Virus record (IMG/VR): IMGVR_UViG_3300045988_097776
Direction: 5' to 3' (one strand)
Length of the DNA stretch: 64,000 nt
Source: a virus
The translations under genes and the position numbers were made by a program. This document shows positions 1 through 48,153 of the stretch, piece after piece. How positions within the stretch are numbered: the first letter of the stretch is position 1; every line of letters begins with the position of its first letter. The notes under the pieces are model-generated. The model did not search any database. It was not told the origin of the DNA and saw only the letters and a program-made list of their open reading frames with translations.

Positions 1-51
1 CAAATTTTTGGGCAATTATTAATAAATAAAATTGCCAATTTCTCAAATATC

Positions 52-690
<639 letters not shown>

Positions 691-741
691 AGTTAAACCA
701 TCTTCCTCTTGTTTTATATATAATATAAAGGAGGAATTAAT

Positions 742-1131
742 ATGCCTGAAATTGTTATTCAAATATTCTAGCTTTGTATTCTTCCTCTGCTTGGTATTTT
801 AACAAAATATCTCATAGATTTCCTCTCTGCTAAACGAGATGAGTTAAATTCTAAGACAGAGAATGAAACAGCTTAGAAATACACCACTATGATATTTGAT
901 ACTATTACTAAATGTGTAATAGCTACAAATCAGACTTATGTTAATAGCTTAAAAGAACAAGGTGCTTTTGATGCTGAGGCTCAAAAAATTGCATTTGATA
1001 AGACTATGGAATCTGTATTAGAGATCTTATCATCTGATGCAAAACAATATATTATTGAGACAACTGGCGACTTAAATACTTACCTAACTAATCTCATTGA
1101 AGCCGCGGTTAATGAAAATAGAGCATCATGA
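742..1131 (+). CDS. small membrane protein, holin-like (N-terminal TM helix)
   Basis: RBS AAGGAGG at 729-735 and ATG at 742. Hydrophobic N-terminus IVIQIFQLCILPLLGIL. Two in-frame TAGs join it to ORF 889..1131. Confidence 0.45.
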
Positions 1132-1267
1132 TATAATGGGGTTACTATGCCCCATTATATTTTTATACTAAAATTGGCAAAAATTTTGGCAAAATAGTAA
1201 AATTATCTTTGCCAAAATTTTATATAATAATGAAAGGCCAAGGGAATATTTTAAAGGAGGTAAAACT

Positions 1268-1693
1268 ATGGCAGTTAATTATCCATACTATATACCACAA
1301 CAATAGCAACCTTAGTATGCGGCAATCCCTTATGCTCCGCAACAAAGAATGCCCTATGTGGAATAGCCCTAGATTGGAATTAAAGGTCGCCCAGTTTCTT
1401 CAATAGAAGAAGTAAAGGCAACTAGCATTGACTTTGATGGTTCTGTATTTTTCTTTCCTGATTTAGCTAATAAAAAAATATATACAAAATAGATAAATTT
1501 AGATGGAACTTCAACACTTAATGTTTATGAATTAAAAAATATTCCGATTGAAACAGTTGTCAATCCTTCTTAGTTTGTTACTAGAGAAGAATTTGAAACC
1601 GTACTTGCTCAATTAAAAGAAAAAATTGCGCCATAGGCAAATAAATAGCCTACAGCGCAATAGCAGGAATCAAAGCCAAAATTAGATTTTTAA
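1268..1693 (+). CDS. Gln/Tyr-rich hypothetical protein (spore-coat-like composition)
   Basis: RBS AAGGAGG and ATG at 1268. Starts MAVNYPYYIPQQQQPQYAAIPYAPQQ, with many of the Q residues encoded by TAG. Stop is TAA 1691-1693. Confidence 0.45.
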
Positions 1694-1705
1694 GGAGCCG
1701 ATAAA

Positions 1706-1939
1706 ATGAATCCAATGTAGTTAATTCAAATGATTAGGAATGGATAGAATCCTCAATAGCTAACTCTAAATATATTAGAAAGTTAGATGGGGAATAATCC
1801 GTTTGGAGCTAATTTGTTAGATCTTGCCAAATAGAATAAAACCGAAGAGATTGAACAAATAGCTAGAAATCTTTTATCCCAAAGAGGATTAAATTATGAC
1901 AAGGAGTTTGCTGACTTTAAGAAAATGCTCGGCCTTTAA
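1706..1939 (+). CDS. small hypothetical protein
   Basis: ATG at 1706 after AAGGAG. About 77 aa with several in-frame TAGs. Stop is TAA 1937-1939. Confidence 0.35.
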
Positions 1940-1964
1940 TAATTTTCTTAAAGGAGGAACTTAA

Positions 1965-2870
1965 ATGTTCAATTCTAACAATGGATACTCTTTAGCTGAT
2001 ATTGCTGCTGCTACAGGTGGCAATGATCGTAACAATGGCGGAATTTGGAACGACGGAGGAGCTTGGTGGATTATAATTCTATTCTTATTCTGCTTCTCTG
2101 GATGGGGAAATGGATTTGGCGGTTTTGGTGGATATGGAGCCAACAGTAATGGTCTGGGTTCTCCTTCTGGTCAAGGTTGGGCAACTCGCGCAGACATTAA
2201 TGAAGGTTTTGCTTTCCAAAATCTACAGTCTGGAATTAATTCTATCCAGTAGGGAATCTGTGATAGCACATATGCTTTAAATAATGCTTTAACAAATGGT
2301 TTCCATGGAGTAGACAACGCAGTATGCAATCTTGGATATCAGACACAGCAAGGTTTCAATAGCACTAATGTAGCTTTAATGCAGGGTCAAAATGCTTTAG
2401 CTACACAGCTTTCTAACTGTTGTTGTGATACAAAATCTGCAATTCAGCAAGCAAGTTTTGATAATCTCACAAATCAAAATGCTATTTCTCGTCAAATTGC
2501 AGATTGTTGCTGCGAGACTGGTCGTCAGATTGAGAGAGGTTTTGCCGACGTCAACTACAATCTAGCGACTAATACTAATGCACTACAGACTTCTATGGCC
2601 AATAATACTCGTGATATTATTGACAGTCAAAATGCTGGAACTCGTGCAATTCTTGATTATCTCTGCCAGGAGAAAATCTCTGATTTGCAAAACGAGAATC
2701 AGGCCCTTCGTCTCGCTGCTTCTCAACAAGCTCAAAATAACTTTATTACAGCTAACCAAGAAGCTCAAACTGCGGAGCTTATTCGTAGATTAGGACGTGA
2801 TAATCCAATTCCCGCTTATGTAGTACCAAACCCCAACTGTTGCTATAGCATGAGTAATTGCGGGTGTTAA
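1965..2870 (+). CDS. Gly-rich/Cys-rich membrane-associated hypothetical protein
   Basis: ORFs 1965..2252 and 2379..2870 share a frame and are joined by TAG 2250-2252. Glycine-rich N-terminus with a TM segment, then a CCC/CCY-rich C-terminus. Confidence 0.5.
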
Positions 2871-2898
2871 TTTAAATTAAAAGGAGAGATTTGGTTCA

Positions 2899-3321
2899 AT
2901 GGAAATTATTGCGAATGCCGTACAAACAGTACAAGCTAATCAAAATGTCCTTTTTACCGATGCGGTAGTAGGCTGCTCCAACAGCCTACTACACCGCGTT
3001 GGGAGTGGACTAGTAACATTAAAAGGTAATACATCTACTCAGTGTAGAGCTAGATATAAAGCTCATTTTAGCGGTAATATTGCAATCGCCGCAGGTGGAA
3101 CAGCAGGTCCAATTTCTTTAGCTATTGCTATCAATGGAGAAGGGGTAGCTTCTACTACTATGATTTCTACTCCGGCGGCGGTAGGAGATTATAATAATGT
3201 AGCAAGTTCTATATTTATTGATGTACCAAGAGGATGTTGTTTTGAAATTGCCGTAAAAAATATTTCTACTTAGGCAATCGACGTCCAAAACGCAAATCTA
3301 ATTATTGAAAGGGTGGCTTAA
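2899..3321 (+). CDS. BclA C-terminal / C1q-like domain protein
   Basis: Contains QNVLFTDAVVGC..VTLKGN..ISLAIAINGEGV, resembling the exosporium BclA C-terminal domain. TAG 3271-3273 is read through to TAA 3319-3321. Confidence 0.5.
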
Positions 3322-3323
3322 TT

Positions 3324-3926
3324 ATGGAAAGACTTAAACATATGAAAGAAACTCTTATTGGATGTGTTCAATCATAGCTAAGCGATATTCATAATGTAGA
3401 TACCCATGAATTAGGCGAAGTTATTGATATGATAAAAGACTTAGAACAGGCGATGTATTACTGTTCTATTGTCAAGGCAATGGAGGAGAAAGAAGAGGAA
3501 CATAAGAAATATTACATCCCAATGATGCCACCATATTATCTTCCAGATAGAGATATGGATAGAGACGATTGGGGCAGAATGTATTATCCTCGCTCTAGAG
3601 ATTCTCAAGGCAGATACATGGAGGATATGTCAGGTAGTCGTAAAGGATATGGAGAAAAACCAATCTATTACAACGAAAGAGAATATCCCATGGAACTAAG
3701 AGATTCTCGCGAAGGCCGCAGTCCAATTACTCGTCGTATGTATATGGAATCAAAAGAATTGCATAAAGACAAGGATACTAAAATTAGAGAATTGGACAAA
3801 TATATGAAAGAATTAAGTGAGGATTTAGTAGAAATGATTGATGATGCAAGTCCAGAAGAAAGACAGCTCCTAGAGAAAAAGATCTCTGCTCTTGCTACAA
3901 AAATATCTTCTTTAAACCATGCTTAA
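3324..3926 (+). CDS. hypothetical protein (Tyr/Pro-rich, acidic)
   Basis: ATG 3324 is in frame with ORF 3429..3926 through one TAG. Contains YYIPMMPPYYLPDRD. Confidence 0.5.
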
Positions 3927-4245
3927 TATAAATGGAGAAGAATGGAAATTATTCTTAACTTCTCCTATTCATCCTATGTTAATTAGAAGTGATGGTCAAT
4001 TAACAATAGGAGCTTGCGATAGCAAAACTAAAGGTATTTATATCAATGAAGAATTATCTTCAACGATGATGAAAAAAGTTTTATGTCATGAATTAACACA
4101 CGCTGCAATGTTTAGTTATGGGATAGAATTATCATTTGAACAAGAGGAATTGCTAGCAGATTTGATAGCAACTTATGGTCAAGAGATAATAAATATGACT
4201 AACTCAATTTTCAATCGTTTAAAGAAGGATGGGGAACTCAATTAA
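3919..4245 (+). CDS. putative HExxH zinc metallopeptidase-like protein
   Basis: Contains CHELTHAAM and is followed by a strong terminator. Confidence 0.5.
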   Translation: MLNINGEEWKLFLTSPIHPMLIRSDGQLTIGACDSKTKGIYINEELSSTMMKKVLCHELTHAAMFSYGIELSFEQEELLADLIATYGQEIINMTNSIFNRLKKDGELN

Positions 4246-4262
4246 GAGTTCCCCATTTTTTT
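4228..4262 (+). terminator. rho-independent terminator between convergent genes
   Basis: Stem GGGGAACTC, loop aattaa, stem GAGTTCCCC, then a run of eight T. Confidence 0.75.
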
Positions 4263-4264
4263 TA

Positions 4265-4696
4265 TTATACAGATTTAATTTCTAACTCAATCGCTTTTTC
4301 GTAATATTCTTTCGCCTAACCGTTTCCGCCAAGAGAGGTATAGAGTTTATAAAATTCTGTTAACTGGTCATATTGATCTTGCGTCATATATCCTTGTTTG
4401 ATATATATTTTACACAGTTGAACAAGTCGAAATCTATACGAAGCTATAATTAAGGTCAAGTCTTGACTTTCTTTGTTTTCAATCCTCTGTATATATCTTC
4501 GAAGTTCTTCAATATCTTCTACTACAGGTTTCAACTTTTCGTCAATCAATTCAGCTATATCATCATTCTCTTTCTCTTGTAACATCTTTTTGTAAGCTAT
4601 TAATTGTTTATATAAATATCTACAAAAAGCCAAAGCACCTGCGGAAATTAGACCAAACAGAATTTCTACTATATGTTCTGCTATAAATGTAAACAT
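4265..4696 (-). CDS. hypothetical TM/coiled-coil protein
   Basis: ORF 4316..4696 ends at TAG and continues in frame (QAKEYYEKAIELEIKSV) to TAA 4265-4267. Confidence 0.5.
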
Positions 4697-4698
4697 AA

Positions 4699-4757
4699 AA
4701 TCCTCCTTTCTTAACTTCTCAAAGTATTTTAAAGTTAAGAAAGGAGGATTTTTTTAT
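4699..4757 (-). terminator. 21-bp inverted repeat hairpin whose 3' arm carries the GGAGG RBS of gene 4265..4696
   Basis: AAATCCTCCTTTCTTAACTT...AAGTTAAGAAAGGAGGATTT, sitting directly after the RuvC-like gene. Confidence 0.5.
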
Positions 4758-10692: not shown

Positions 10693-11244
10693 TTAATAGA
10701 ATTGTCCAAATATAGTATCAACAGCTATATCAATATCATCTAAGGTATTGTTCTAAAGAGTTATATATTTTATATCATTAAGAAAACTAAAATCTTCTGT
10801 ATCCGCTTTGTATCTTCTAATTATTTCGTCTACATCAGGATTTTCTTCTCTATTCAGCTATCTTAAAAGACGCTACTTACCCGCGGCCCGCACATAAAAT
10901 ACATACAGTTCAATGTTTTCATCTTCCTGTAAGCATCTAACTCCTTCTGGATTAAATACTCCTATATTTATCTTATCTATTGTTAGACTTTGACTATCTG
11001 TTCCATAGTGCCAACCATTAAATTCAGTAGCCTCTAGCATATCTCCATTTAAGATTTTTCTAATAAAATCTTCAACGGATAAGAAGTGATAATTAACTCC
11101 TTCTTTCTCTCCCTGCCTAGGAGGTCGAGTCGTACAACTAATAATTTCATTGAAATAGGAAGGATACTTCTCCATAATTCTATGGAGAATAGTATCCTTA
11201 CCGCTTCCTGCTTCACCCATTAATGCTACTATCTTCATCTTCAT
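10693..11244 (-). CDS. gmk: guanylate kinase
   Basis: Contains GEAGSGKDT and CTTRPPRQGE..GVNYHF. ORF 10873..11244 ends at TAG, and read-through of 3 TAGs gives the C-terminus YITLQNNTLDDIDQLVDTIF to TAA 10693-10695. Confidence 0.6.
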
Positions 11245-14200
11245 CTTCTCCTTGTTTTCTTTCGCTTCTCAAGATTAGATCTGTTCCATTGATAATTTCA
11301 TCAATGTGATAAAGTTGATGGCCTCCAGAACTTGCATATTTCTTTGTTACAAATTCATCGCCTCGTCTAATCCCTTGCACAACAATCATATTACCTCTAT
11401 TAAACCAAGACTTCTCTACAACTCTCTTTGTTCCATCTGCGTTTCTTTGGAAGGTTTGTTTATCAAACAAAGCAAAGTATTCTTGTCTGAATTTAACTGC
11501 TACTACTCCAGTTGTTGTAAGAAGATATACAGTACTCTTCACCTTATTTTTTGCAATGCACGTCCCGCAGATTTTATGCAGTTTATAAATAGGAATTAAA
11601 GAAGCACCTTTTTTAAATACTTTATCTACTTGAGGTTCTTCTGGAAGGCTAAAGAAGTCTACAAATCCATATTTGCTATTGTTAATATTCGCTAGCTCAT
11701 GGTCGTGATAATAAAAACATAGAGATTCCATTTCCCAAGAAGATATGTTCCCTGAAGCATACTTTTTCCAATCTTCCATAAAGATGGTGGTGTTTAAATT
11801 ATCTAAAATCGTTTCTTTATTTTCAGAGATCCAATTTCTAAATACGTCCATGTAACTTTGATAAATTTTATCCCAGGCTTTTATGTCAATATACCATGCT
11901 AGATTATCTGTTTCCAATAGATCCTCGCAATCAATTTCAACGAGAAAGGTGATTGCTCTTTCGTCGAGTTTATATTTTGCTACATTGTAAGGATCTTTAC
12001 ACTCTGCTTTTAGATACCTATTAAATTCATACACTCTTTTCGGCATCACAAACTTTTCTTCATAGGGGATAAGATCATATCTCATTAACCCAGGAAGGTT
12101 TTGTAAAGTAATTCTCTTTTTCTTATCGCAGGTAATCCATATATATTGAATCATAGCCTCCATACGTGAACTAAACTGGTCGAATCCTCCACCTTTAATT
12201 AAAGAAATCATTGCTTGTTTATTAGGATGAACTCTGTTATAGAAATCAACAAGAGATACATAGGGTCGATTATCTACAATAGTTTTTATCAGTTCATTAT
12301 TAACATTTGACAAACCCTTTAATCCGAAAAGAATCTAGTTATTTTTTACATCTGGCTTAAATCCAAAGTCAGAATTATTAATATCCACAAGGGAAACCTT
12401 AATTCCTGCATTACGAATTTCTCCTATTGCTTTTGCAATCTTTGTATAATCTGATTGTTCTCCTTCTTCTTCATCAATAGCACCACTATTTACAATCAGA
12501 TACGCCGTATTCCAATATACCGGATTAAAATGAGTAGCAAGATACAGAGTTTGCATACCAACAAAACTATAAGCAAGAGCATGGATAATACTGAACGAAT
12601 AACCCATTTGCGGGCCGATGCCATAAGTCCAGACATAATGTCCTAACGCGGGAGATTTCGCAGAGTTTAAGACCTTTTCTTTAAGTTCTGGGATTTTATT
12701 CATTTGCTTTTTACCAACAATTTTTCTTGCAGCATTCGCTTCTTCAAGAGTAAATCCGCAGATATTCTCGTCTTGTAACATGGTCATCATTTGTTCTTGG
12801 CTAGGAGGAACACCATAAGAACGTAAGAAATGCGGTTCGAGAATCCTTTGTTCTTCTTTTGTTAATCCTTCTCTGTCCATTTCTTGATACCAAAGAGAAA
12901 TATTATTCTTAAATCGAACATACTTCTCCATTGGAGTTTCAGCACCTTTTTCGGAAGTCATTAGGCGCATCAATCCATTCGCGTCAGCCATCTCATGCGG
13001 ATTTTGAGGTTTAATCTTCTTCGCGGCTTGTGCACCAACGCTTGAGTCAAATTGGAAACATCCAAGAACATCACCATTAGCTAAAGCATCCCACATTTTT
13101 TTATCATCTTGAGGCAAGACAGATGGATGAAGATATTTATTATATACTTCTCTTAAAGTTAAATCTTTTTCGATAACTCCATCTTCTTGTAGTAATTCAA
13201 CAGCTTGGATAATAATATCTTGAACTGCTGTTAAGAGAAAGTCATACTTAACAGAACCAGCAGCCTCTTGGTCATGCAAATCCCATTGAGTAATTAATGC
13301 ACCCTTTGGTGTTCTCATAACTGCGGCACTGTCGAAAATATTTTCATCAAACAAAATAACGCCGGATGCATGACTAGAACGTTTATTTACAAGCCCTTGA
13401 ATTCTAGTAATAATATCTAGAAGACCGGGATATTGATTTACAGTATTTACAAATGTAGTAACTGCTTTACGTCCCTTTTCTGGGTTTCCATTAACGACGT
13501 CCTCAATGGGCCACAAGAAGCCTCTTTCCTGCGGAATTAGGGAACTCATATATTGAGCCATATCAACATCAATACCTTCTGGATAATCGTCAGATCTATA
13601 ACCTCTACAGGCTGTCAATATGGCAGATTTAGTTCCCTCAGTTCCGAAGGTACATACTTGGACTAGCCCTAATTCTCCTCGTTCTTTTCTGATTTCAGCA
13701 AAGATTTTTTGAATCTTAGATGGAGCCAAGTCCAAATCAATATCTCCAAGTTCTGTTCTTTTGTCATTGATATATCTCCAGAAAGGAAGATCCCATTCGA
13801 TTGGATCCAGCTGAGTAATTCCAAGAAGATAATGATTAAGAGCTGCACAAGCCGAACCTCGACCCGCACCTACCGTACTTCCGCAATCCCAAAACAAATC
13901 AACATAGTGTTTTAATGTATTTGGATAAGCGAACATACAAGTTTGTAATTTCTCTCCAATCACTCTCTTTACTCTTGCTTCTTCTTCAAGTCTTTCTGGA
14001 TATTCTGGTCTATCAATCCAATCAATACCTTTTGCTTCTAGCGCTTTCCAGCATTCATTTATCCAATAACGCTCTTGAATATTATCGGAAGTGAAAAGTG
14101 ATTTTAGGATTGGATACTTAGACATTTCATCTGCATAATCATTGTTAGTTCCCCACCATGCAGTAGGAGGGTAATCAGTTACTTCTACTTCTGGAATAGA

Positions 14201-15115
14201 CTGATGCTTTTCCAGAGAGTAAAATTCTATTTTATCTTTAATCTCGTTTGAGCAATTAAAAATCCAATCAATAATATTATCTTCATAGCTCAAACGAAGT
14301 AATTCTCTAGTTTCAGTTTCGTCCATAAGACGAGTAAATTCATAGAAGCTATCGACTTCTCTTTCTCCGCCCTTAGAATTTAAATATGCTTTATGGACAT
14401 ATCTATCTTCTTTTGTTAGATAGTGGGCATCTGTGCCGATACACATATTAACAGAGAACGCTTCTGCAATTTTTAACATTCTTTTATTTGCAATAATCTG
14501 GTCAGGATATGACGCTGGTGCGCACTCAATATAAAAATCATCTTGACCAAATACATCTATACAGAAAGTAATAAAATCTACAATCTGTTGATGATAACGC
14601 TTTGCGTTTACTTCATCTTTTATTTCTTCACAATTATTTAGATTTAAAATGGATTGACCTAATTCACCGCCAATACAAGCAGTAGTGCCAATAATATGCC
14701 CTTTAAATCTCTGCATTACATCTTTTAATTCTGATTTAAGCAAAGGAACTCTTTCCATTCTTCTATCATAATAACCATTCATCCAGGCGATAGAAGATAA
14801 CTCCTTTAGTCCCCTATAACCAATTTCGTCTTTAGCAATTAAGATAAAGTGATAGTATCTTTGTCCTAAATCTCTAGTATCTGTAAGATAGATTTCATTA
14901 CCAAGAGCTATAACAAAACTGGGATTAGTTTCTTTGATTTTTTTCGCATATTTATTTACTCTCATATGCGCGGAGAGAGATTCGTGGTCCGTGATAGCTA
15001 TTCCCGTTAATCCAACTTCAATAGCTTTATCAATCAGCTCTTCTGGTTTATTTATACAATCCAAAAGTCTTAAATTAGAGAACTCTGTATGACTATGATT
15101 ATTAAAATAGCTCAT
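11213..15115 (-). CDS. dnaE: DNA polymerase III alpha subunit (DnaE-type, PHP domain N-terminus), one in-frame TAG
   Basis: ORF 12335..15115 has PHP, palm and fingers domains and ends at TAG 12335-12337. It is in frame with ORF 11213..12313, which carries the OB-fold C-terminus. Confidence 0.85.
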
Positions 15116-39374: not shown

Positions 39375-39836
39375 TTAATTATTATTGCCCTGACGAAATT
39401 TTCTAACTATCGAGAGCGCCTTAGTTTGATTTTTAATGTAAGTTTTTAAGTTAGTTTCTTCTGTTTTTAATGCTTTTTTAAGAGCGGAAATGCGAGATAT
39501 ATAGCGCGTTATAGCATGATAAAAGTTGCCAGTAGGGTCCACTTCCGCGGGACCTGCTTTTCCGTACTTCGTTGCCTCTTGATAGAAATCATATCTATAT
39601 TCCATTTCTTTTCGAGATTTTTTAATCTCGTAGTTCATAGCATTCATTCTTGCTTTTGATAAAGCGATATTTCTACCAACTCTATAGGAATAAAAACCTT
39701 TATCATTTTCTGCTAATTTTGCGTTCCCTGTAAATAACTTACCGTCATATAATATACCTATAATTGTATCTCCAATATTTTCATCAATTACTTCAGTTAC
39801 TATTGGAGCTTTATATATTGCGCTTACTACACTCAT
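39375..39836 (-). CDS. hypothetical protein
   Basis: ORF. Confidence 0.5.
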   Translation of the reverse strand: MSVVSAIYKAPIVTEVIDENIGDTIIGILYDGKLFTGNAKLAENDKGFYSYRVGRNIALSKARMNAMNYEIKKSRKEMEYRYDFYQEATKYGKAGPAEVDPTGNFYHAITRYISRISALKKALKTEETNLKTYIKNQTKALSIVRKFRQGNNN

Positions 39837-39872
39837 TATAAGTTTCTCCTAATCTTTTAAATCTTATATTTA

Positions 39873-39903
39873 GATTATATCATTTATTTATAGAAAAATC
39901 AAT
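39873..39903 (-). promoter_or_regulatory. strong sigma-70-like promoter (TTGATT, 17-nt spacer, TGATATAAT)
   Basis: Minus-strand TTGATTTTTCTATAAATAAATGATATAAT. Confidence 0.55.
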
Positions 39904-39930
39904 TATTTTAAGTATTTTGAAGAAAAAATT

Positions 39931-39960
39931 GCTGGGCCTATGCGCACGGAAACTCGGAGT
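39931..39960. other. conserved intergenic box, copy 1 (GGGCCTRTGCGMACGRAAACTCGGAG)
   Basis: Near-identical 26 to 35-nt sequence also at 63851-63880. Both lie between a terminator hairpin and a promoter. Flanking CCTA..TAGG versus CCTG..CAGG show a compensatory change. Confidence 0.5.
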
Positions 39961-39997
39961 ATCACGAAGCTAGGCATAAAAAAAAGACCTCTAACCA

Positions 39998-40027
39998 TAT
40001 TGGTTAGAGGTCTGATAAATTAATTAT
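39998..40027 (-). terminator. rho-independent terminator
   Basis: AGACCTCTAACC atat TGGTTAGAGGTCT, preceded on plus by an A8 run (a T-run on the minus strand). Confidence 0.65.
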
Positions 40028-40757
40028 TGTTTGGATGTATTATGAAGGTACTCGTTTCTAATAGCAAATCTTTAAGTTCTATATCTTGATAATGCGTATA
40101 TGGAATGCGAATTATTGGGATGTTATTATCGAAGCAATAGTTATTCTTTTCAGTATCTCGAATTTGTTGACTTTCTTTTGTATGAATTTCATTTCCCCAT
40201 TTGCTATCCTAGAAATGCTATTTTCCATCATATTCTATAACATATTTATCCTATATAAAGAAGTCATATCGGAATAATGTACCATAAAAAATTTTTTCTT
40301 TAACAAAAGGAATTTTAGCATCTCGTAGTATTTCTGCAATCTTTTGCTCACCTAGAGATTTTATACATCCACAGCTTTTTGTATTTTCTTGTTGTAAAGA
40401 ATTACCAGACACAATAATGGTATTTCCACAATCGCATTTGCACTTCCAATAACTTTTTGTTGATCCGTTTGGATTTTTCTTAGTGCCATTAAATTCTATC
40501 ACTGTTAATAATCCAAACTTCTATCCAACAAGATTTTTTAAATTATCATGTCCAGTTTTCTTTGCCGCTTCTTTTTGTAAGCATCCACAGCTCTTTTTAT
40601 GGCCAGATTTAAGGTCTGCGCTAGACGCATAAGTTTCATTTCCACAAGAGCATTTACATCTCCAAATAACTCCACCTCTATGATCTCGCTGCTTTGTTTC
40701 TTCCAAGACGGTTAATTGATTAAATTGCTAACCAACTAAATTTATTTTTTTACCCAA
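40020..40757 (-). CDS. putative homing endonuclease: two zinc-ribbon repeats plus C-terminal Vsr/DUF559-like PD-(D/E)xK domain (6 in-frame TAGs)
   Basis: ORFs 40521..40706 and 40251..40502 are joined by TAG. Repeats NLVGQxF..LTV..W(R/K)CKCxCGN..SCGC. C-terminus DFFIQDKYVIEYDGKQHF. TTG start after AGAGGTGA. Stop TAA 40020-40022. Confidence 0.5.
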
Positions 40758-40803
40758 TTCAATCACCTCTAATATTAGTAAATGTTAGAGTAGATAAATT
40801 AAA

Positions 40804-43555: not shown

Positions 43556-43586
43556 AAAATAAAGAGAGCGTAAAGCTCTCTTTATT
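43556..43586 (-). terminator. rho-independent terminator
   Basis: AAATAAAGAGAGC gtaa GCTCTCTTTATTT. Confidence 0.6.
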
Positions 43587-44308
43587 TAAAAGAAGGGGCA
43601 GATTGGCATTTCCTCTGTTTTATGTAGGTTTCTCTTGTGTCTCTGCTCAATATTTTTATATACTTCATACGGAGGAGTAATACGATATAGCAAAAAGTTA
43701 TCAAGAGTTTTATAAGAAAAACCTAGATTCTCTTCATCTGAGAGTCCAGTTAATCCATCTTCTGGAACTTTTTCTATAAATTTCTCCGGTAGACCAAGTT
43801 CTAAACCAATCTCTTTAACTTCTGTTACTGTGTAATTGTGCAGAATTGAAAAATCTCCCGCGGAATCACCAAATTTGGTTGAATAACCAACATAATTTTC
43901 ACTTCTATTACAAGTGTTTGCAACTCTACCATGTCGAGCAGCCGCGATGGCATAAAGAATATTCATTCTTTCTCTTGCTGGAACGTTACTTACAACTTGA
44001 GGAAGATTACGAATATCAGAGGGTAGGGAGAAAAAAGTTGCTTTGCAAGCCTCTCCAATGTTGATATTATAATGTTCTTTAATGCCTAGATACTCAATAA
44101 CTTCATTTGAAATATCAATGTCTGATTGATACCCTTGTGGCATTTGAACTGCAATTACATTTTCTGGCCCAATAGCTTTACAAAGCAGTGCGGCAGCGAC
44201 AGTAGAATCTTTTCCTCCAGAAATACCAATAACAGCTTTGCAGTCCGGGCCGTTGTCGATAAAATATTTTTTAATCCAGTTAATGATTCTTTGAACTCTT
44301 ATTGTCAT
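43586..44308 (-). CDS. nadE: NH3-dependent NAD+ synthetase (PP-loop ATPase)
   Basis: Contains IGISGGKDS. Confidence 0.7.
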   Translation of the reverse strand: MTIRVQRIINWIKKYFIDNGPDCKAVIGISGGKDSTVAAALLCKAIGPENVIAVQMPQGYQSDIDISNEVIEYLGIKEHYNINIGEACKATFFSLPSDIRNLPQVVSNVPARERMNILYAIAAARHGRVANTCNRSENYVGYSTKFGDSAGDFSILHNYTVTEVKEIGLELGLPEKFIEKVPEDGLTGLSDEENLGFSYKTLDNFLLYRITPPYEVYKNIEQRHKRNLHKTEEMPICPFF

Positions 44309-44313
44309 AAGAT

Positions 44314-45903
44314 TTACTCTCCCATCAGTCGATTCTTAATTGTATAAAAATCTTCCTCGTTTTCGCGTACAAAAACACCATCTTTTACTTTGAATTTCAT
44401 TACATTATCCTTATATTCGATGGCTTCTTTAAGAGTAAGATTTTCAACAAGCCTATATTGGCCCTCTGAGTCTTTAACAACCGCTACGCATCCACGAGGA
44501 GATTTTTTCCCAGGATCGGTTTTTGGCATCTTGTAGATTTGGATTTCATCTTCTCCAAGAATACAATCGGTAGCCTTAATTGCATAGCCTCTAGTGTCAC
44601 GAGTTACATATTGATAAGTATATGCGCCAATTCCAAAACAGATATTTGATACTGAAATAGAATTATTGACACACCAATTACATATTTTTTCAGTGATCTC
44701 GGGAGTGATCGCATCGCCATAAATAACACGAATACAAGAGGGAAGCTCAAAATAACCCTTTCTATTAAGGTTGCCGCCAAAAGTATCAAAGAGACTGACA
44801 AGAGTTCCTTTACCCTCCGGGGAGTCAGGATCAACAGCAAAACTTGTGTCCCCGCAAATGATTTTTACTGGATCTCCGCTATCGGGGCGGATGGAAAGGC
44901 ATCCATCCCGCTGCTCGATAATGTCTCTCAATGCAGGAACAATTTTAGATACTACACCCCAATAATCATATGTATCTGCTACATAAGTCATTGTCCCAGT
45001 AGGCTGAATATTGATAAGAAGATGGCGCAGGAAGAGCATCTCAGCAATAAGATTAACTTCCCAATTTTCAGAGAGGCAAGTATTGAGTAGAGCTTGCTCC
45101 TCGGCTTCTAGCTCACCATTGAACATCTGCGCTCTTTTCCATGCTACACCCTGTTCAACAACAGAGTGCTCCAGAGATGGAGTTCCCATTAGAGGAGGAT
45201 TATTCTCTAAATCTGCTCCATAATATTTCTCCAAAAGAAGATTAGAACCAATGGTCGCAGTCCTATCAAAAGACAAAGCGTGCGCGGCGCCAGAGATATA
45301 GCCCGCTTCAAGTGAAGTGTGACCGCGGAGAGAGAAGTCACCGCACATATGAGGGAGAGCAGACATATCGTCACAGGTCATCTTAACATAAGGCTCGATT
45401 AGCTTACGTCGATAGAAGGCTGTCGTGGCAGAAGTAGAAGGAAGCCAGTTATTTGCACTCCACTGATCTTCAATAAACTGCGGAAGCCATGCAAATTCAG
45501 GATCAGTAGAAAAGATAACATGATCTGGAATACCGATAGGAAGAAGTGTACCTTCGGGAACTCCCATAATTGAAATGGGAAGATAGCCAAGCTCATAAAG
45601 TTTCCTAAACTTGCTGAAATCTGCATAGCCAGGATGGAAAGTATCCTTGATTACCCTGTTCCACTCGCTTTCAAGCAGATCAATGGGCTGATTAAAAAAT
45701 TCTGCCTGCCAGTAATTAAGCAGTCGCTGGATGGTATATTGATGGCCAAACACCATAGTTTTGGCGCAGTCTTTATGATATTTATTGCTGCGAGCAGTCC
45801 AAGTAGAATACACCATCTTTGCGTCGGCAGGCTGCATTTTAACCGCATGACCAATCTTATAATAGTCTGCCGCAAACATAGGTGCTACATCAAAGAAACT
45901 CAT
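44314..45903 (-). CDS. nicotinamide/nicotinate phosphoribosyltransferase (NAMPT/NadV family)
   Basis: 529 aa with ADYYKIGH near the N-terminus (compare DSYKVTH in NAMPT). Confidence 0.7.
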   Translation of the reverse strand: MSFFDVAPMFAADYYKIGHAVKMQPADAKMVYSTWTARSNKYHKDCAKTMVFGHQYTIQRLLNYWQAEFFNQPIDLLESEWNRVIKDTFHPGYADFSKFRKLYELGYLPISIMGVPEGTLLPIGIPDHVIFSTDPEFAWLPQFIEDQWSANNWLPSTSATTAFYRRKLIEPYVKMTCDDMSALPHMCGDFSLRGHTSLEAGYISGAAHALSFDRTATIGSNLLLEKYYGADLENNPPLMGTPSLEHSVVEQGVAWKRAQMFNGELEAEEQALLNTCLSENWEVNLIAEMLFLRHLLINIQPTGTMTYVADTYDYWGVVSKIVPALRDIIEQRDGCLSIRPDSGDPVKIICGDTSFAVDPDSPEGKGTLVSLFDTFGGNLNRKGYFELPSCIRVIYGDAITPEITEKICNWCVNNSISVSNICFGIGAYTYQYVTRDTRGYAIKATDCILGEDEIQIYKMPKTDPGKKSPRGCVAVVKDSEGQYRLVENLTLKEAIEYKDNVMKFKVKDGVFVRENEEDFYTIKNRLMGE

Positions 45904-45924
45904 AAAATCTTCCTTTCCTTATTT

Positions 45925-45950
45925 CTTTATTATATTATAACATATATTTT
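45925..45950 (-). promoter_or_regulatory. conserved promoter motif variant (extended -10, TGTTATAAT)
   Basis: Minus-strand ATATGTTATAATATAATAAAG. Confidence 0.45.
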
Positions 45951-45957
45951 TATAAAA

Positions 45958-45985
45958 ATAAAAAGCTCTCATAAGAGAGCTTTTT
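45958..45985 (-). terminator. rho-independent terminator
   Basis: AAAAAGCTCTC ataa GAGAGCTTTTT. Confidence 0.65.
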
Positions 45986-45986
45986 A

Positions 45987-46355
45987 TCAATTTTGAAGCA
46001 AGCTGAATAATGCTTCAATTCCTACGTATTCTGGCGCAATAATGCAAGTAATAATTGGAACACAAACTGTAATAATGACTGAAAGTATGGGCACGAATGT
46101 AAGAATGTGCAGGTGCCATTTTTTAAAATCGACTTCAATCATTAGATATAGTATAAACCATATAATACTAGAAATAATAGCACCTATAAAAACCCCAACA
46201 AAAATGTTAAATCCTAAATCTTTAACGGTTACGTACCAGCCATATTTAGCCAACCACATTGGAGCATTTTCCATAATAGTTTGAGTGGTTACTCCAAAAA
46301 AGTTAGCAAGAGACTGTAAAATAGAAGCCAACGTCTGCTCTAAAGTCAAACTCAT
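45987..46355 (-). CDS. polytopic membrane protein
   Basis: Several hydrophobic helices. Confidence 0.5.
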   Translation of the reverse strand: MSLTLEQTLASILQSLANFFGVTTQTIMENAPMWLAKYGWYVTVKDLGFNIFVGVFIGAIISSIIWFILYLMIEVDFKKWHLHILTFVPILSVIITVCVPIITCIIAPEYVGIEALFSLLQN

Positions 46356-46801
46356 TTTAGAATCTCCCCAACAACAGTGCTTACAATTTTCATATCAGCT
46401 TTACCTTTGAGTGCCGCAGAAACATACTTCATAATCGCACCTCGGTTTGCTTTAAGGAGATCTATACCTGCGGCAGCTGCGATTTCTCTTACTCTTGTTT
46501 CAATCTCTGTTTTATCTGTAAGCAGCTGTGGAGCACACATTTTTACGATTTTCATATCCTCTTGATATTGATGCAACTTCTCAGAATAGTTAGCGGGGCA
46601 GGTATCAATCATTTCTTGCACAGTTTTTTGATACTTAATAAGAGTTTCATCAATTAACTGCTCTGTTAGTTCCACTCTTCCCTTCGGAGTAATTGTTGCT
46701 TTCTGACACGAATCAATCATGTCAGAAAGCACTCTCTTTGTATTTACGTCTCCATTTTTAAGAGCTGCAATTTTTAGTGCTTGAAGCTTTTCAATAGTCA
46801 T
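46352..46801 (-). CDS. GatB/YqeY-domain protein
   Basis: ALKNGDVNTKRVLSDMIDSCQKA matches the YqeY pattern. Confidence 0.45.
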   Translation of the reverse strand: MTIEKLQALKIAALKNGDVNTKRVLSDMIDSCQKATITPKGRVELTEQLIDETLIKYQKTVQEMIDTCPANYSEKLHQYQEDMKIVKMCAPQLLTDKTEIETRVREIAAAAGIDLLKANRGAIMKYVSAALKGKADMKIVSTVVGEILK

Positions 46802-47610
46802 CGAACAATTTCTACCTTTCCTCTAGTATCCCACTCAGGCTTAAAGATGCTATCAGTGGTAAAGATTTTCTTTACAATATCCTGATTATACATATCACCT
46901 TCAACCATAGTATGTTCTGCATGAGTGACGTAAAGATAAATATTTTTTGCTCCTGCTTCTTTTAGAGCGTTTGCCGCGTGATAGAAAGTTCCTCCCCGAG
47001 AGCAAATATCGTCTACAATTAGAACACCCTTATCTTTAACCAACTCACCATTCATTAGTTGTAGACCAAGAATTTTTCCAGTAGACCAATCCCTCTTTTT
47101 AATTCCAAAGGCGTATGGAAGATTAATTGCTGGAGTGGAATATCTCTTCATAGCTCCCTCGTCCGGGAAAAATAGAACGGGAGTTTCTTTTTCATAATGC
47201 TCAAAAAGTTTGATAGCCTCTTTGATTTCTCCAATAGGAGTAAGATCAATTACCCTATCGAGCAGAGCTAATGCTACATTAGAATGAGCATCTCTTACAA
47301 TGACTTTATCGAAGTGAAGACCATTGATTACTTGACAGAAATATTTAAGGGTAAACACATCTTCAAGTTCTTGCACTCTATCCATTCTTGCATGAGGAAT
47401 ATATGGCATATCGAGCCTCAAGGGACAATCTTTAAAGTGTCCCTTTACGCAAATTAGAGTGAACAGTTCTGCATCGTTCTCATACTCCCAAAGAACGGTA
47501 TCGTAATCAAAATAATTGGGCGGCATATTAATATGCAGCGTTCCATCGGGAAAATGATTTTGCTCAATTACATCTGTCCAATGACTGCGCGTGTTAATCA
47601 GACTAATCAT
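46798..47610 (-). CDS. prs: ribose-phosphate pyrophosphokinase (PRPP synthetase)-like
   Basis: PRPP-binding VLIVDDICSRGGT. Confidence 0.65.
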   Translation of the reverse strand: MISLINTRSHWTDVIEQNHFPDGTLHINMPPNYFDYDTVLWEYENDAELFTLICVKGHFKDCPLRLDMPYIPHARMDRVQELEDVFTLKYFCQVINGLHFDKVIVRDAHSNVALALLDRVIDLTPIGEIKEAIKLFEHYEKETPVLFFPDEGAMKRYSTPAINLPYAFGIKKRDWSTGKILGLQLMNGELVKDKGVLIVDDICSRGGTFYHAANALKEAGAKNIYLYVTHAEHTMVEGDMYNQDIVKKIFTTDSIFKPEWDTRGKVEIVR

Positions 47611-47613
47611 TTC

Positions 47614-48153
47614 TTAATCCTCCACATCAATCTGTTGAGCTTTGAAAATAGTTAGCGCTGCCTCATGCGATTCTGGAGTTACTCCTGCGCACGCACTAGA
47701 ATGAACGATAATTCTAGTATTTGGCAACGCTGCACGAAGCATAACCGCGTTAGCCATAACGCAGATATCGGTACAAAATCCGCAGATATGAATTTCTACT
47801 TCCTCTGGATTCTTCATCTTTAGAGAATCATATACCTCATTAACCATATCGGTACTGCCAAAGGTGTCTTTTTCATAATAATTAAACTTGTTATTCAACG
47901 CAATCACGACTCTGGAATCCATACACCAGCCCACGCTTGCCTTAATACAATGTTTAACAGGAAGTTTCTTTCCTTCCAAAGTATCGAAGTAATCGTCATC
48001 ATGGGTATCCATGGTACAAATAATTTCTTCCCAACAGAATCGTTTAATTAGATCAACAATATTAGGAACTGCGGCATCCGCCTCCTTTGTACCTAGCGCC
48101 CTAGTGATGAAATCATTTTGAGCATCAACAATTATAAGTATCTTTCTATACAT
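47614..48153 (-). CDS. isochorismatase-family hydrolase, nicotinamidase (PncA)-like
   Basis: ILIIVDAQNDF, a Cys in ICGFCTDIC, and 179 aa. Confidence 0.65.
   Translation of the reverse strand: MYRKILIIVDAQNDFITRALGTKEADAAVPNIVDLIKRFCWEEIICTMDTHDDDYFDTLEGKKLPVKHCIKASVGWCMDSRVVIALNNKFNYYEKDTFGSTDMVNEVYDSLKMKNPEEVEIHICGFCTDICVMANAVMLRAALPNTRIIVHSSACAGVTPESHEAALTIFKAQQIDVED

What the first reader, a model, noticed from the sequence alone, without database searches (positions are those of the whole stretch)
39931..39960. Conserved 26 to 35-nt intergenic box present twice (also 63851-63880), each between a terminator hairpin and a promoter, with a compensatory base change in flanking stem positions
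The box GGGCCTRTGCGMACGRAAACTCGGAG is nearly identical in both copies. Flanks CCTA..TAGG in copy 1 versus CCTG..CAGG in copy 2 suggest a conserved stem-loop. It could be an operator for the phage wHTH regulator, an sRNA, or a site for packaging or replication.
Basis: seen in the sequence. Interest (0 to 1): 0.55.

Follow-up and report, generated by a model that had tools for sequence, protein, structure and literature searches.

The report
Conserved two-copy intergenic DNA box
A 31-base GC-rich sequence sits twice in this uncultured gut phage, each time between a terminator and a promoter; it is conserved across the phage family as DNA, not as an RNA hairpin, and is most likely a docking site for a regulatory protein, though its function is untested.

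Summary
The repeat is real. The minus (coding) strand reads CTCCGAGTTTYCG-N9-GCCCASCAA plus a T-run, at 39929-39959 and 63853-63883. Chance expects 0 copies, and a profile finds no third copy in the window.

In about 70 related metagenomic loci the two outer blocks are invariant. The 9-nt centre varies freely but never changes length.

The proposed stem-loop with a compensatory change is not supported:
- The two 'stems' use non-homologous linker positions.
- Pairing equals the shuffled controls.
- RNAalifold and RNAfold find no shared structure on either strand.
- Rfam gives no match.

The box always lies about 18 nt after an intrinsic terminator and 26-30 nt before the -35 region of the next operon. 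Its centre is at roughly -75 to -86.

The two copies exchange sequence within genomes. The sequence upstream of copy 1 is a mosaic junction.

The phage is a roughly 145-kb relative of SPbeta that reads TAG as a sense codon. SPbeta has a repeated operator, SPBRE, bound by MrpR. That is the closest analogue, but the sequence, position and copy number all differ.

Best reading (about 0.4): a bipartite site recognised by a protein that co-regulates two operons.

Rivals: a promoter or termination signal for a phage polymerase or sigma factor, a recombination cassette, or an RNA element.

Interest is moderate to low.

The parts
39929..39959 (-). Box copy 1: CTCCGAGTTTCCG TGCGCATAG GCCCAGCAA (block 1, free 9-nt centre, block 2)
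   Evidence: nhmmer E 6e-17. It is orthologous in about 60 loci upstream of the 153-aa gene.
39910..39928 (-). T-run and A/T tract directly after copy 1 (TTTTTTCTTCAAAATACTT). The T5-8 run is conserved in every variant.
39960..39977 (-). 18-nt linker between the terminator T-run and copy 1 (ATGCCTAGCTTCGTGATA). It is semi-conserved, with an invariant CG(T) 5-6 nt before the box.
   Evidence: invariant columns 14-15
39985..40013 (-). Intrinsic terminator of the upstream HNH gene (13-bp stem plus T8)
   Evidence: The terminator sequences differ completely between lineages.
39874..39902 (-). Sigma-70-type promoter of the copy 1 operon (TTGATT-17-TATAAT with TG). The -35 hexamer starts 26 nt after the last base of the box in the window (39928-39903), and 24-25 nt in most other lineages.
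39375..39836 (-). First gene after copy 1: a 153-aa protein of unknown function. It is followed by PIN-PhoH and then the lysis genes.
63853..63883 (-). Box copy 2: CTCCGAGTTTTCG TTCGCACAG GCCCACCAA
   Evidence: E 1e-15. Orthologues appear.
63837..63852 (-). T-run and A/T tract after copy 2 (ATTTTTCTTTCAAAAA)
63902..63930 (-). Intrinsic terminator upstream of copy 2. It ends the tRNA/ncRNA cluster that lies beyond the window end.
63789..63797 (-). Putative extended -10 (TGTTATATA) of the copy 2 operon. There is no good -35.
   Evidence: Read from the sequence. The consensus scan did not call it.
63482..63739 (-). First gene after copy 2: 85 aa if the two in-frame TAG codons are read as sense. 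Tail-fibre-like genes follow.

Best explanation
The box is a cis-acting double-stranded DNA element: a bipartite, asymmetric recognition site for a sequence-specific protein.

Its layout is block 1 (CTCCGAGTTTCCG), a spacer of exactly 9 unconstrained bp, block 2 (GCYCASCAA), and then an A/T tract. It lies upstream of the promoters of two operons, with its centre at about -75 to -86.

The inferred mechanism is as follows. A phage-encoded protein, or less likely a host one, binds the two blocks, which are about two helical turns apart. From there it activates or represses the adjacent extended -10 promoters, so the two operons are switched together. The operons are:
- Copy 2: tail-fibre-like genes rich in TAG.
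- Copy 1: the 153-aa protein and PIN-PhoH, directly upstream of the lysis genes.

Shown: the repeat, its conservation pattern, its position, the lack of RNA structure, and sequence exchange between the copies.

Inferred: protein binding, the identity of the protein, and the direction of regulation.
For: - There are two copies only, far beyond chance.
- Across lineages whose neighbouring protein has diverged to 45% identity, block 1 is invariant apart from two positions (11 and 13) that change in a few copy-2 variants. Block 2 keeps its invariant core GC.CA.CAA. The 9-nt centre is replaced freely, for example TGCGCATAG, ATCTTGCAC, TTCGCGCAG and ATCGCGCAT, and its length never changes.
- A fixed spacing with free sequence is what DNA-protein geometry predicts. 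It is not what a loop or linker in an RNA predicts.
- There is no conserved RNA fold on either strand and no Rfam family.
- The box sits after an efficient-looking terminator and before the promoter, so little of it should be transcribed.
- Other terminator-promoter junctions in the window abut directly and lack the box, so it is an added module at 2 of about 10 junctions.
- The closest cultured relatives are SPbeta-like phages. In SPbeta a repeated, non-palindromic intergenic element (SPBRE) is the operator of MrpR (PMC10516654).
Against: - No binding protein is identified.
- No MrpR or YonO homologue is present in the DNA I could see, and only 64 of about 145 kb was available.
- There is no dyad symmetry.
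- A run of 13 contiguous invariant bases is more than most helix-turn-helix proteins read.
- The box lies upstream of the promoter rather than over it.
- The distance to the -10 differs by 9 nt between the copies.
- The rest of the copy 1 promoter region is also well conserved, so conservation alone does not single out the box.
Confidence: 0.4

Rival explanations
1. The box is a polymerase signal for a phage-specific transcription machinery, such as a YonO-like single-chain RNA polymerase or a phage sigma factor. It could be a promoter, with block 1 and block 2 as recognition elements and the T-run in the initiation region. Or it could be a hairpin-independent pause or termination signal (conserved sequence plus U-run, like T7 class II terminators), placed in tandem with the host-type terminator.
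For: - The orientation is strictly co-directional with the genes in both copies and in all orthologues, and the T-run is strand-specific.
- The element is low in copy number, asymmetric and highly conserved, and it sits at operon boundaries.
- The nearest cultured relatives are SPbeta-like. SPbeta YonO transcribes the late structural and lysis genes from a single promoter whose sequence is unknown, and it lacks the domains used for hairpin termination (PMC5467207).
- Copy 2 lacks a canonical sigma-70 promoter and heads TAG-rich tail-fibre-like genes.
- The box keeps a tight distance to the upstream terminator: about 18 nt in most lineages, or about 10-11 nt after a longer interrupted T-tract in others.
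Against: - No phage polymerase or sigma factor is seen in the window or in the related loci held.
- The centre of the box is free to vary, unlike T7-type promoters.
- The box does not resemble the region upstream of SPbeta yonK.
- Plausible host-type promoters lie downstream of both copies.
Confidence: 0.22
2. The box is mainly a recombination substrate: a conserved linker of a terminator-box-promoter cassette at which gene cassettes are swapped and between which the two copies convert each other. This would resemble the PeSL mobile regulatory cassettes of T4-type phages.
For: - Homology between lineages stops at the 5' edge of the linker. Upstream lie at least 5 unrelated terminators and different genes: HNH, Band_7 of 260-508 aa, or Metallophos directly.
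- In contig 081499 the two copies share about 58 nt including the linker and differ at 1 nt.
- In L020, copy 1 carries a copy-2-type centre inside copy-1 flanks, which indicates short-patch conversion.
- The PeSL precedent is PMC2839356 and PMC4122927.
Against: - Recombination does not explain the near-invariance of block 1 and the invariant core of block 2 next to a free centre.
- There are only two copies, both in direct orientation 24 kb apart, and no box on the other side of the variable cassette.
- Genomes with a single detectable box keep the same gene order upstream.
- A mosaic junction is expected next to any strongly conserved site.
Confidence: 0.13
3. The box works as RNA: a small RNA, a leader element, or a pseudoknotted ribozyme of the kind found in recoded gut phages (theta/HDV-like). 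The invariant blocks would form tertiary contacts that nested-fold programs miss.
For: - The invariant stretches are long and contiguous.
- The host genome is a TAG-recoded gut phage rich in tRNAs and ncRNAs, and copy 2 lies about 130 nt after a tRNA-Met.
- About 40% of theta ribozyme occurrences are isolated in non-coding DNA, nearly all in the sense of the neighbouring genes (PMC10879173).
- One column pair (20/40) shows A-U in copy 1 and G-C in copy 2.
Against: - The alifold energy is -0.4 kcal/mol with no covariation.
- Single-sequence folds differ between variants, with z-scores from about -2.5 to +1.7 and mostly near 0.
- No ribozyme or other Rfam family appears even at E <= 10.
- By hand I could not thread the HDV order P1-P2-P3-L3-P3'-P1'-P1.1-P4-J4/2-P2' on either strand. 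There is no P2 partner and no catalytic C in place.
- The box lies between a terminator and the promoter.
- The centre varies independently of every other segment.
Confidence: 0.08

Closest known systems
SPBRE (SPbeta repeated element), the operator of the master repressor MrpR/YopR of Bacillus phage SPbeta
   Same: It is a short, non-palindromic repeated element in the intergenic regulatory regions of a large SPbeta-type phage, the nearest cultured relatives by DNA polymerase at 42% identity. It is recognised by a phage protein and ties several operons to one switch (PMC10516654).
   Different: - The sequence is unrelated. The SPBRE core I derived is AAATACAAAAAATATGTATA and is AT-rich, and the box profile finds nothing in SPbeta.
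- SPBRE overlaps the promoter and has about 10 copies. The box lies roughly 25 nt upstream of the -35 and has 2 copies.
- No MrpR homologue was seen.
- Binding here is inferred, not shown.
PeSL composite promoter-terminator cassettes of T4-type phages
   Same: Both are terminator-plus-promoter intergenic modules repeated within a genome, sitting at the borders of variable gene cassettes, with signs of exchange between copies (PMC2839356, PMC4122927).
   Different: In PeSLs the conserved parts are the promoter and the stem-loop themselves, and there are many copies. Here the terminators are unrelated, the conserved part is an extra GC-rich box that is neither promoter nor hairpin, and there are two copies.
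Upstream activator sites of phage late promoters (for example phi29 p4 at about -82, or class I CAP-type sites). This comparison rests on my own knowledge, not a test.
   Same: Each is a protein site one to two helical turns upstream of the -35, next to A/T tracts, at promoters with a weak -35.
   Different: Those sites have dyad symmetry or repeats. This one is asymmetric, with 13 contiguous invariant bases.
T7 class II (hairpin-independent) termination or pause signal. This comparison rests on my own knowledge.
   Same: Both are a conserved sequence followed by a U-run with no hairpin. Both are polymerase-specific and low in copy number.
   Different: The T7 signal is 7-8 nt. No phage polymerase is known for this genome, and no RNA 3' ends have been mapped.

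Membership tests
Structured RNA element (sRNA or cis-regulatory stem-loop) | A secondary structure shared by homologues and supported by covariation | tested here: not met
RNAalifold gives -0.4 kcal/mol with 0 compensatory pairs. MFE folds of 16 variants differ on both strands, with z-scores mostly near 0.
Structured RNA element (sRNA or cis-regulatory stem-loop) | A match to a curated RNA family | tested here: not met
   cmscan at gathering thresholds finds only 4 tRNAs. An E <= 10 scan of 39800-40100 gives nothing that covers the box credibly.
HDV-like / theta ribozyme | A nested double pseudoknot (P1, P1.1, P2, P3, P4) with the catalytic C in J4/2 | tested here: not met
   Manual threading on both strands found no P2 partner, no P3 covariation, and U instead of C after the only possible P4. 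There was no HDV-family hit. I did not run the RNArobo descriptor from the paper.
SPBRE / MrpR operator | The SPBRE sequence motif | tested here: not met
   The SPBRE core from 7 SPbeta promoters is AAATACAAAAAATATGTATA, with no resemblance to the box. The box profile has no hit in 50 kb of SPbeta.
SPBRE / MrpR operator | Overlaps the regulated promoters and is present at many promoters | tested here: not met
   The box ends roughly 25 nt upstream of the -35. There are 2 copies in the window and no contig with more than 2 matches in the IMG/VR pattern scan.
SPBRE / MrpR operator | A tyrosine-recombinase-fold repressor (MrpR homologue) encoded by the phage | tested here: inconclusive
   tblastn of YopR against the window and the family loci gives no hit. 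About 80 kb of the genome was not available.
PeSL-type mobile regulatory cassette | A composite terminator stem-loop plus promoter repeated in the genome | tested here: inconclusive
   The composite architecture is present at both copies. However, the terminators and promoters themselves are not the repeated part.
PeSL-type mobile regulatory cassette | Flanks variable genes and shows recombination between copies | tested here: inconclusive
   A variable cassette lies upstream of copy 1 and there are conversion-like mosaics. No box lies on the far side of the cassette.
Phage single-subunit RNA polymerase promoter (T7-like) | Contiguous conservation of about 23 bp, many copies, and a polymerase gene in the genome | tested here: not met
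   The centre is free to vary, there are two copies, and no polymerase was found in the DNA seen.
Intrinsic terminator | A GC-rich hairpin directly followed by a T-run | tested here: not met
   The T-run is present, but the box contains no hairpin.
Packaging (pac/cos) or replication origin | Genome ends or a skew switch at the site, or iterons | tested here: not met
   The cumulative GC skew is monotonic through both sites. There are no tandem repeats of the box. Contig ends near the box fall at scattered positions and include a fold-back artefact in L009.

The most novel reading that the evidence does not exclude
The box is the recognition signal, either a promoter or a hairpin-independent terminator, of a phage-encoded non-canonical RNA polymerase of the YonO type in an uncultured family of SPbeta-related gut phages that read TAG as sense. 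It would mark the switch to the recoded late operons. That would give the first sequence signal for this polymerase class and link it to code switching.
Probability: 0.12. Interest if true: 0.6.

Novelty: new variant of a known kind. Interest (0 to 1): 0.33.

Why it matters
If the box is a regulatory site, it defines a small two-operon regulon: tail-fibre-like genes, and the unit just ahead of the lysis genes. The phage family carrying it is prevalent and uncultured. The adjacent 153-aa protein was seen on 356 contigs in human-gut and other assemblies.

These phages reassign TAG, so the box offers a handle for working out how they time late gene expression.

It also gives a precise probe of 31 bp with two invariant blocks. 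That probe could be used for DNA pull-downs, or as a marker of this phage family in metagenomes.

If it is only a conserved operator-like motif of unknown partner, it is a routine finding.

Tried and rejected
- **Coding sequence.** One frame gives mostly synonymous changes between the copies. But there is no start codon, the frame runs through the terminator hairpin, and the outer blocks show no third-position variation (and reading).
- **tRNA fragment, attP core or host sequence.** The pattern scan of 185,579 bacterial and archaeal genomes gave chance hits in GC-rich genomes plus one phage contig binned in a Eubacterium MAG.
- **CRISPR-repeat mimic.** There is no hairpin and no array.
- **Sigma-54, ECF, SPO1 gp28-type promoters or Hin/Gin sites.** I compared these consensus sequences from memory and none fits.
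- **boxA-like or CodY-like reading of the T-run.** That tract is not conserved in the L001-type lineage.
- **HDV-like/theta ribozyme.** Threading failed.
- **Deletion of the 24-kb module between the direct repeats.** Genomes with one detectable box keep the Thg1/PNK/Metallophos synteny.
- **The 153-aa neighbour as regulator.** The AlphaFold model is good (pLDDT 89), but no PDB match is significant; there is only a weak dsRBD-like N-domain at E 0.08.
- **The 318-aa neighbour of the wHTH protein as an MrpR homologue.** It has no PDB sequence match.
- **Searching for a YonO homologue in this family.** The protein search and the IMG/VR scan returned only Bacillus-type relatives, so these two calls were uninformative.
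- **GenBank phages.** There is no nucleotide match and no match to the 153-aa protein.

Full report
**1. Observation**

No match was seen in 100 dinucleotide-preserving shuffles, even allowing three mismatches. The quoted coordinates are a few bases off.

All genes in this part of the window are on the minus strand, so I describe the element on that strand.

The order there is the same for both copies:
- stop codon of the upstream unit;
- a strong intrinsic terminator (40013-39985; 63930-63902);
- a linker of 10-18 nt;
- the box, CTCCGAGTTTYCG-N9-GCCCASCAA (39959-39929; 63883-63853);
- a run of 5-8 T and an A/T tract;
- the promoter region, ribosome-binding site and first gene of the next unit.

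Copy 1 has a clear sigma-70-type promoter, TTGATT-17-TGATATAAT. Copy 2 has only an extended -10, TGTTATATA.

A profile built from 14 variants finds the two copies at E 6e-17 and 1e-15. The next hit is at E 0.07. The half-sites do not occur alone elsewhere in the window.

About ten other terminator-promoter junctions in the window abut directly and have no box.

**2. Conservation**

The window has no nucleotide match among GenBank phages. Pattern scans of IMG/VR, JGI/ENA metagenomes and GTDB genomes, plus look-ups through the neighbouring proteins, gave about 70 related loci. The related contigs reach 144-150 kb and many are labelled human gut. One is binned in an 'uncultured Eubacterium' MAG.

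Copy 1 is always upstream of the orthologue of the 153-aa protein, whose identity falls to 45% (alignment A3). Copy 2 is upstream of the 85-aa gene.

Across 20-odd distinct variants:
- Positions 1-10 and 12 are invariant, and so are the GC, CA and CAA of block 2.
- The nine positions between the blocks are replaced freely: TGCGCATAG, CGCACATAG, TTCGCGCAG, ATCTTGCAC, ATCGCGCAT, TGCGCATAT.
- The length of that centre never changes.

Among otherwise identical loci the centre shows C/T and G/A changes at four sites in almost free combination. That points to recurrent mutation of a CpG-rich spacer that is not read.

The linker carries an invariant CG(T) 5-6 nt before the box.

The rest of the copy 1 promoter region is also well conserved. 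Block 1 is the longest invariant run, but it is not the only conserved part.

**3. Not an RNA stem-loop**

RNAalifold on nine variants gives -0.4 kcal/mol with no compensatory pair.

Single-sequence folds of 16 variants on both strands give different structures, with z-scores mostly near zero.

The 'compensatory change' therefore compares positions that are not homologous. Tested one at a time, the stems pair in 53% and 63% of cells, against 52% and 62% for shuffled columns.

Rfam gives only four tRNAs at gathering thresholds, and nothing over the box even at E <= 10.

This is a TAG-recoded gut phage, so I considered the theta (HDV-like) ribozymes described for such phages (PMC10879173). I could not place the required order of helices on either strand.

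The box also lies after a terminator and before the promoter, where little transcription is expected.

**4. Context**

TAG is almost certainly read as a sense codon:
- There is a tRNA with anticodon CTA at 60031-60105.
- The HNH gene upstream of copy 1 has in-frame TAGs, one of them at a conserved Q.
- The DNA polymerase becomes one 1300-aa ORF when TAG is read through.

By DNA polymerase the nearest cultured phages are Enterococcus phages EF1/VRE9 and Bacillus SPbeta, at 42% identity.

Downstream of copy 1 lie the 153-aa protein, a small ORF and PIN-PhoH. After another terminator and promoter come NAGPA/SPOR and lysozyme/amidase genes.

Downstream of copy 2 lie TAG-rich tail-fibre-like genes.

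Beyond the window end, upstream of copy 2, lie a tRNA-Met, an AAA/nSTAND3 protein, twelve more tRNAs, a tmRNA and a ROOL RNA.

**5. Exchange and mosaicism**

The sequence upstream of copy 1 differs completely between lineages. There are at least five unrelated terminators, preceded by HNH, by Band_7 genes of various sizes, or by Metallophos directly. Homology starts at the linker.

In contig 081499 the two copies share about 58 nt, including the linker, and differ at one base.

In L020, copy 1 has a copy-2-type centre inside copy-1 flanks.

So the copies exchange short patches, and the box marks a recombination junction.

Several short contigs end at scattered positions within about 100 nt of either copy, and one ends with a fold-back at the terminator. 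This fits assembly breaks at a repeat or at strain variation, not physical DNA ends. GC skew does not change at either site.

**6. Explanation**

The data fit a double-stranded DNA site read by a sequence-specific protein better than an RNA. Supporting this reading:
- There are two invariant blocks at a fixed spacing, about two helical turns centre to centre, with a free spacer.
- There is no RNA structure.
- The position is at about -92 to -62 for copy 1, two bases closer in the L001-type lineage, and nine further out for copy 2.

I therefore propose a bipartite regulatory site through which one protein switches two extended -10 promoters together (confidence about 0.4). Binding, the protein and the sign of regulation are all inferred.

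The closest known system is SPBRE, the repeated operator of MrpR in SPbeta (PMC10516654). I derived its core, AAATACAAAAAATATGTATA, from seven SPbeta promoters. It is unrelated in sequence, it overlaps the promoters, and it is present about ten times. No MrpR homologue was found in the DNA available. The box may work like an SPBRE but is not a member of that family.

**7. Rivals**

(a) A signal for a phage-specific polymerase or sigma factor, either a promoter or a hairpin-independent terminator, at about 0.22.
- SPbeta transcribes its late genes with YonO from one promoter of unknown sequence (PMC5467207).
- The box has a strict orientation, a strand-specific T-run and a tight link to the upstream terminator, all of which would fit.
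- Against it, I found no polymerase or sigma gene in the 64 kb, and my two attempts to find a YonO homologue in the family were uninformative.

(b) A recombination cassette like the T4 PeSLs, at about 0.13. This explains the mosaic junction and the conversion. It does not explain why two blocks stay conserved next to a free centre.

(c) An RNA with tertiary structure, at about 0.08.

The remaining probability covers unknown functions.

**8. Verdict**

The repeat is real and conserved, and it is new as a sequence family. The stem-loop reading is wrong. The operator-type reading is plausible but unproven. This is a modest finding whose value depends on experiments or on a full genome.

Noticed in passing
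window 60031-60105 (-), and genome-wide: There is a tRNA with anticodon CTA (an amber suppressor, which ARAGORN calls 'Pyl'), and many genes have in-frame TAG. Total ORF length at >=150 aa rises from 11.9k to 16.5k aa when TAG is read as sense. The DNA polymerase becomes one 1300-aa ORF (15115..11213) instead of 926 + 366 aa. The phage very probably uses code 15 (TAG read as Gln).
   Followed up: partly
window 40020-40766 (-): An HNH-type homing-endonuclease-like gene with in-frame TAG codons (3 checked in 40020-40520; 5 counted over the whole ORF) sits directly upstream of copy 1. Related genomes carry Band_7/flotillin-like genes or nothing at this spot, so it is a variable cassette site.
   Followed up: partly
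window 54671-59009 (-): An 811-aa protein has Major Vault Protein domains (MVP_shoulder 8e-18, Vault repeats). Next to it is a 507-aa DUF2828/DUF7788 protein that PHROGs labels 'RNA-binding protein'. RlaP, PNK, Thg1-like and RNA-ligase genes lie nearby. Together they form a vault-like and RNA-repair module in a phage.
   Followed up: no
window 43586-48153 (-): A cluster of NAD-related genes: NAMPT (529 aa), NAD synthase, an isochorismatase-family protein, and a phosphoribosyltransferase / PRPP-synthetase-like protein.
   Followed up: no
window 63935-63960 (-), upstream of the copy 2 terminator: A hairpin, GATTGGAGTT-ctgcaa-AATTCCAATC, reads GATTGAGGTT-ctgcaa-AACCTTGATT in related loci (L140, L142, L145, L146). 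Two pairs have changed on both sides, so the hairpin is conserved. It lies between a tRNA-Met and the terminator and could be a small RNA or a 3' processing element.
   Followed up: partly
L307 1-7200 (related contig Ga0245310_100109; corresponds to DNA just beyond window position 64000): This stretch holds a dense RNA-gene cluster: 12 tRNAs called by ARAGORN, a tmRNA (69.9 bits) and a ROOL RNA (350 bits, full length). A 373-aa AAA/nSTAND3 protein follows them.
   Followed up: no
window 60877-61212 (-) and 39375-39836 (-): The 111-aa and 153-aa proteins share an N-terminal motif (G.A.C/L.P/..D.F....G...A..RA) followed by long helices, so they are probably paralogues of an uncharacterised phage family. 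The model of the 153-aa protein has a weak dsRBD-like N-domain.
   Followed up: partly
box positions 14-18 (window 39942-39946 and orthologues): The CpG-rich centre shows C/T and G/A changes at four sites in nearly free combination (8 haplotypes) among otherwise identical loci. This suggests recurrent deamination-type mutation or selection against GCGC/CGCG restriction sites.
   Followed up: no
L009, L011, L013, L014, L141, L143, L144, L150, L164 (contig ends): Many metagenomic contigs of this phage family break within about 100 nt of either box copy. L009 ends in an inverted duplication centred on the terminator loop. These are probably assembly artefacts at a repeat, a palindrome or a strain-variable junction.
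   Followed up: partly
window 1-4700: The coding strand and GC skew switch at about 4 kb. Genes are on the + strand before that point and on the - strand after it, which could mark a divergent transcription or replication landmark.
   Followed up: no
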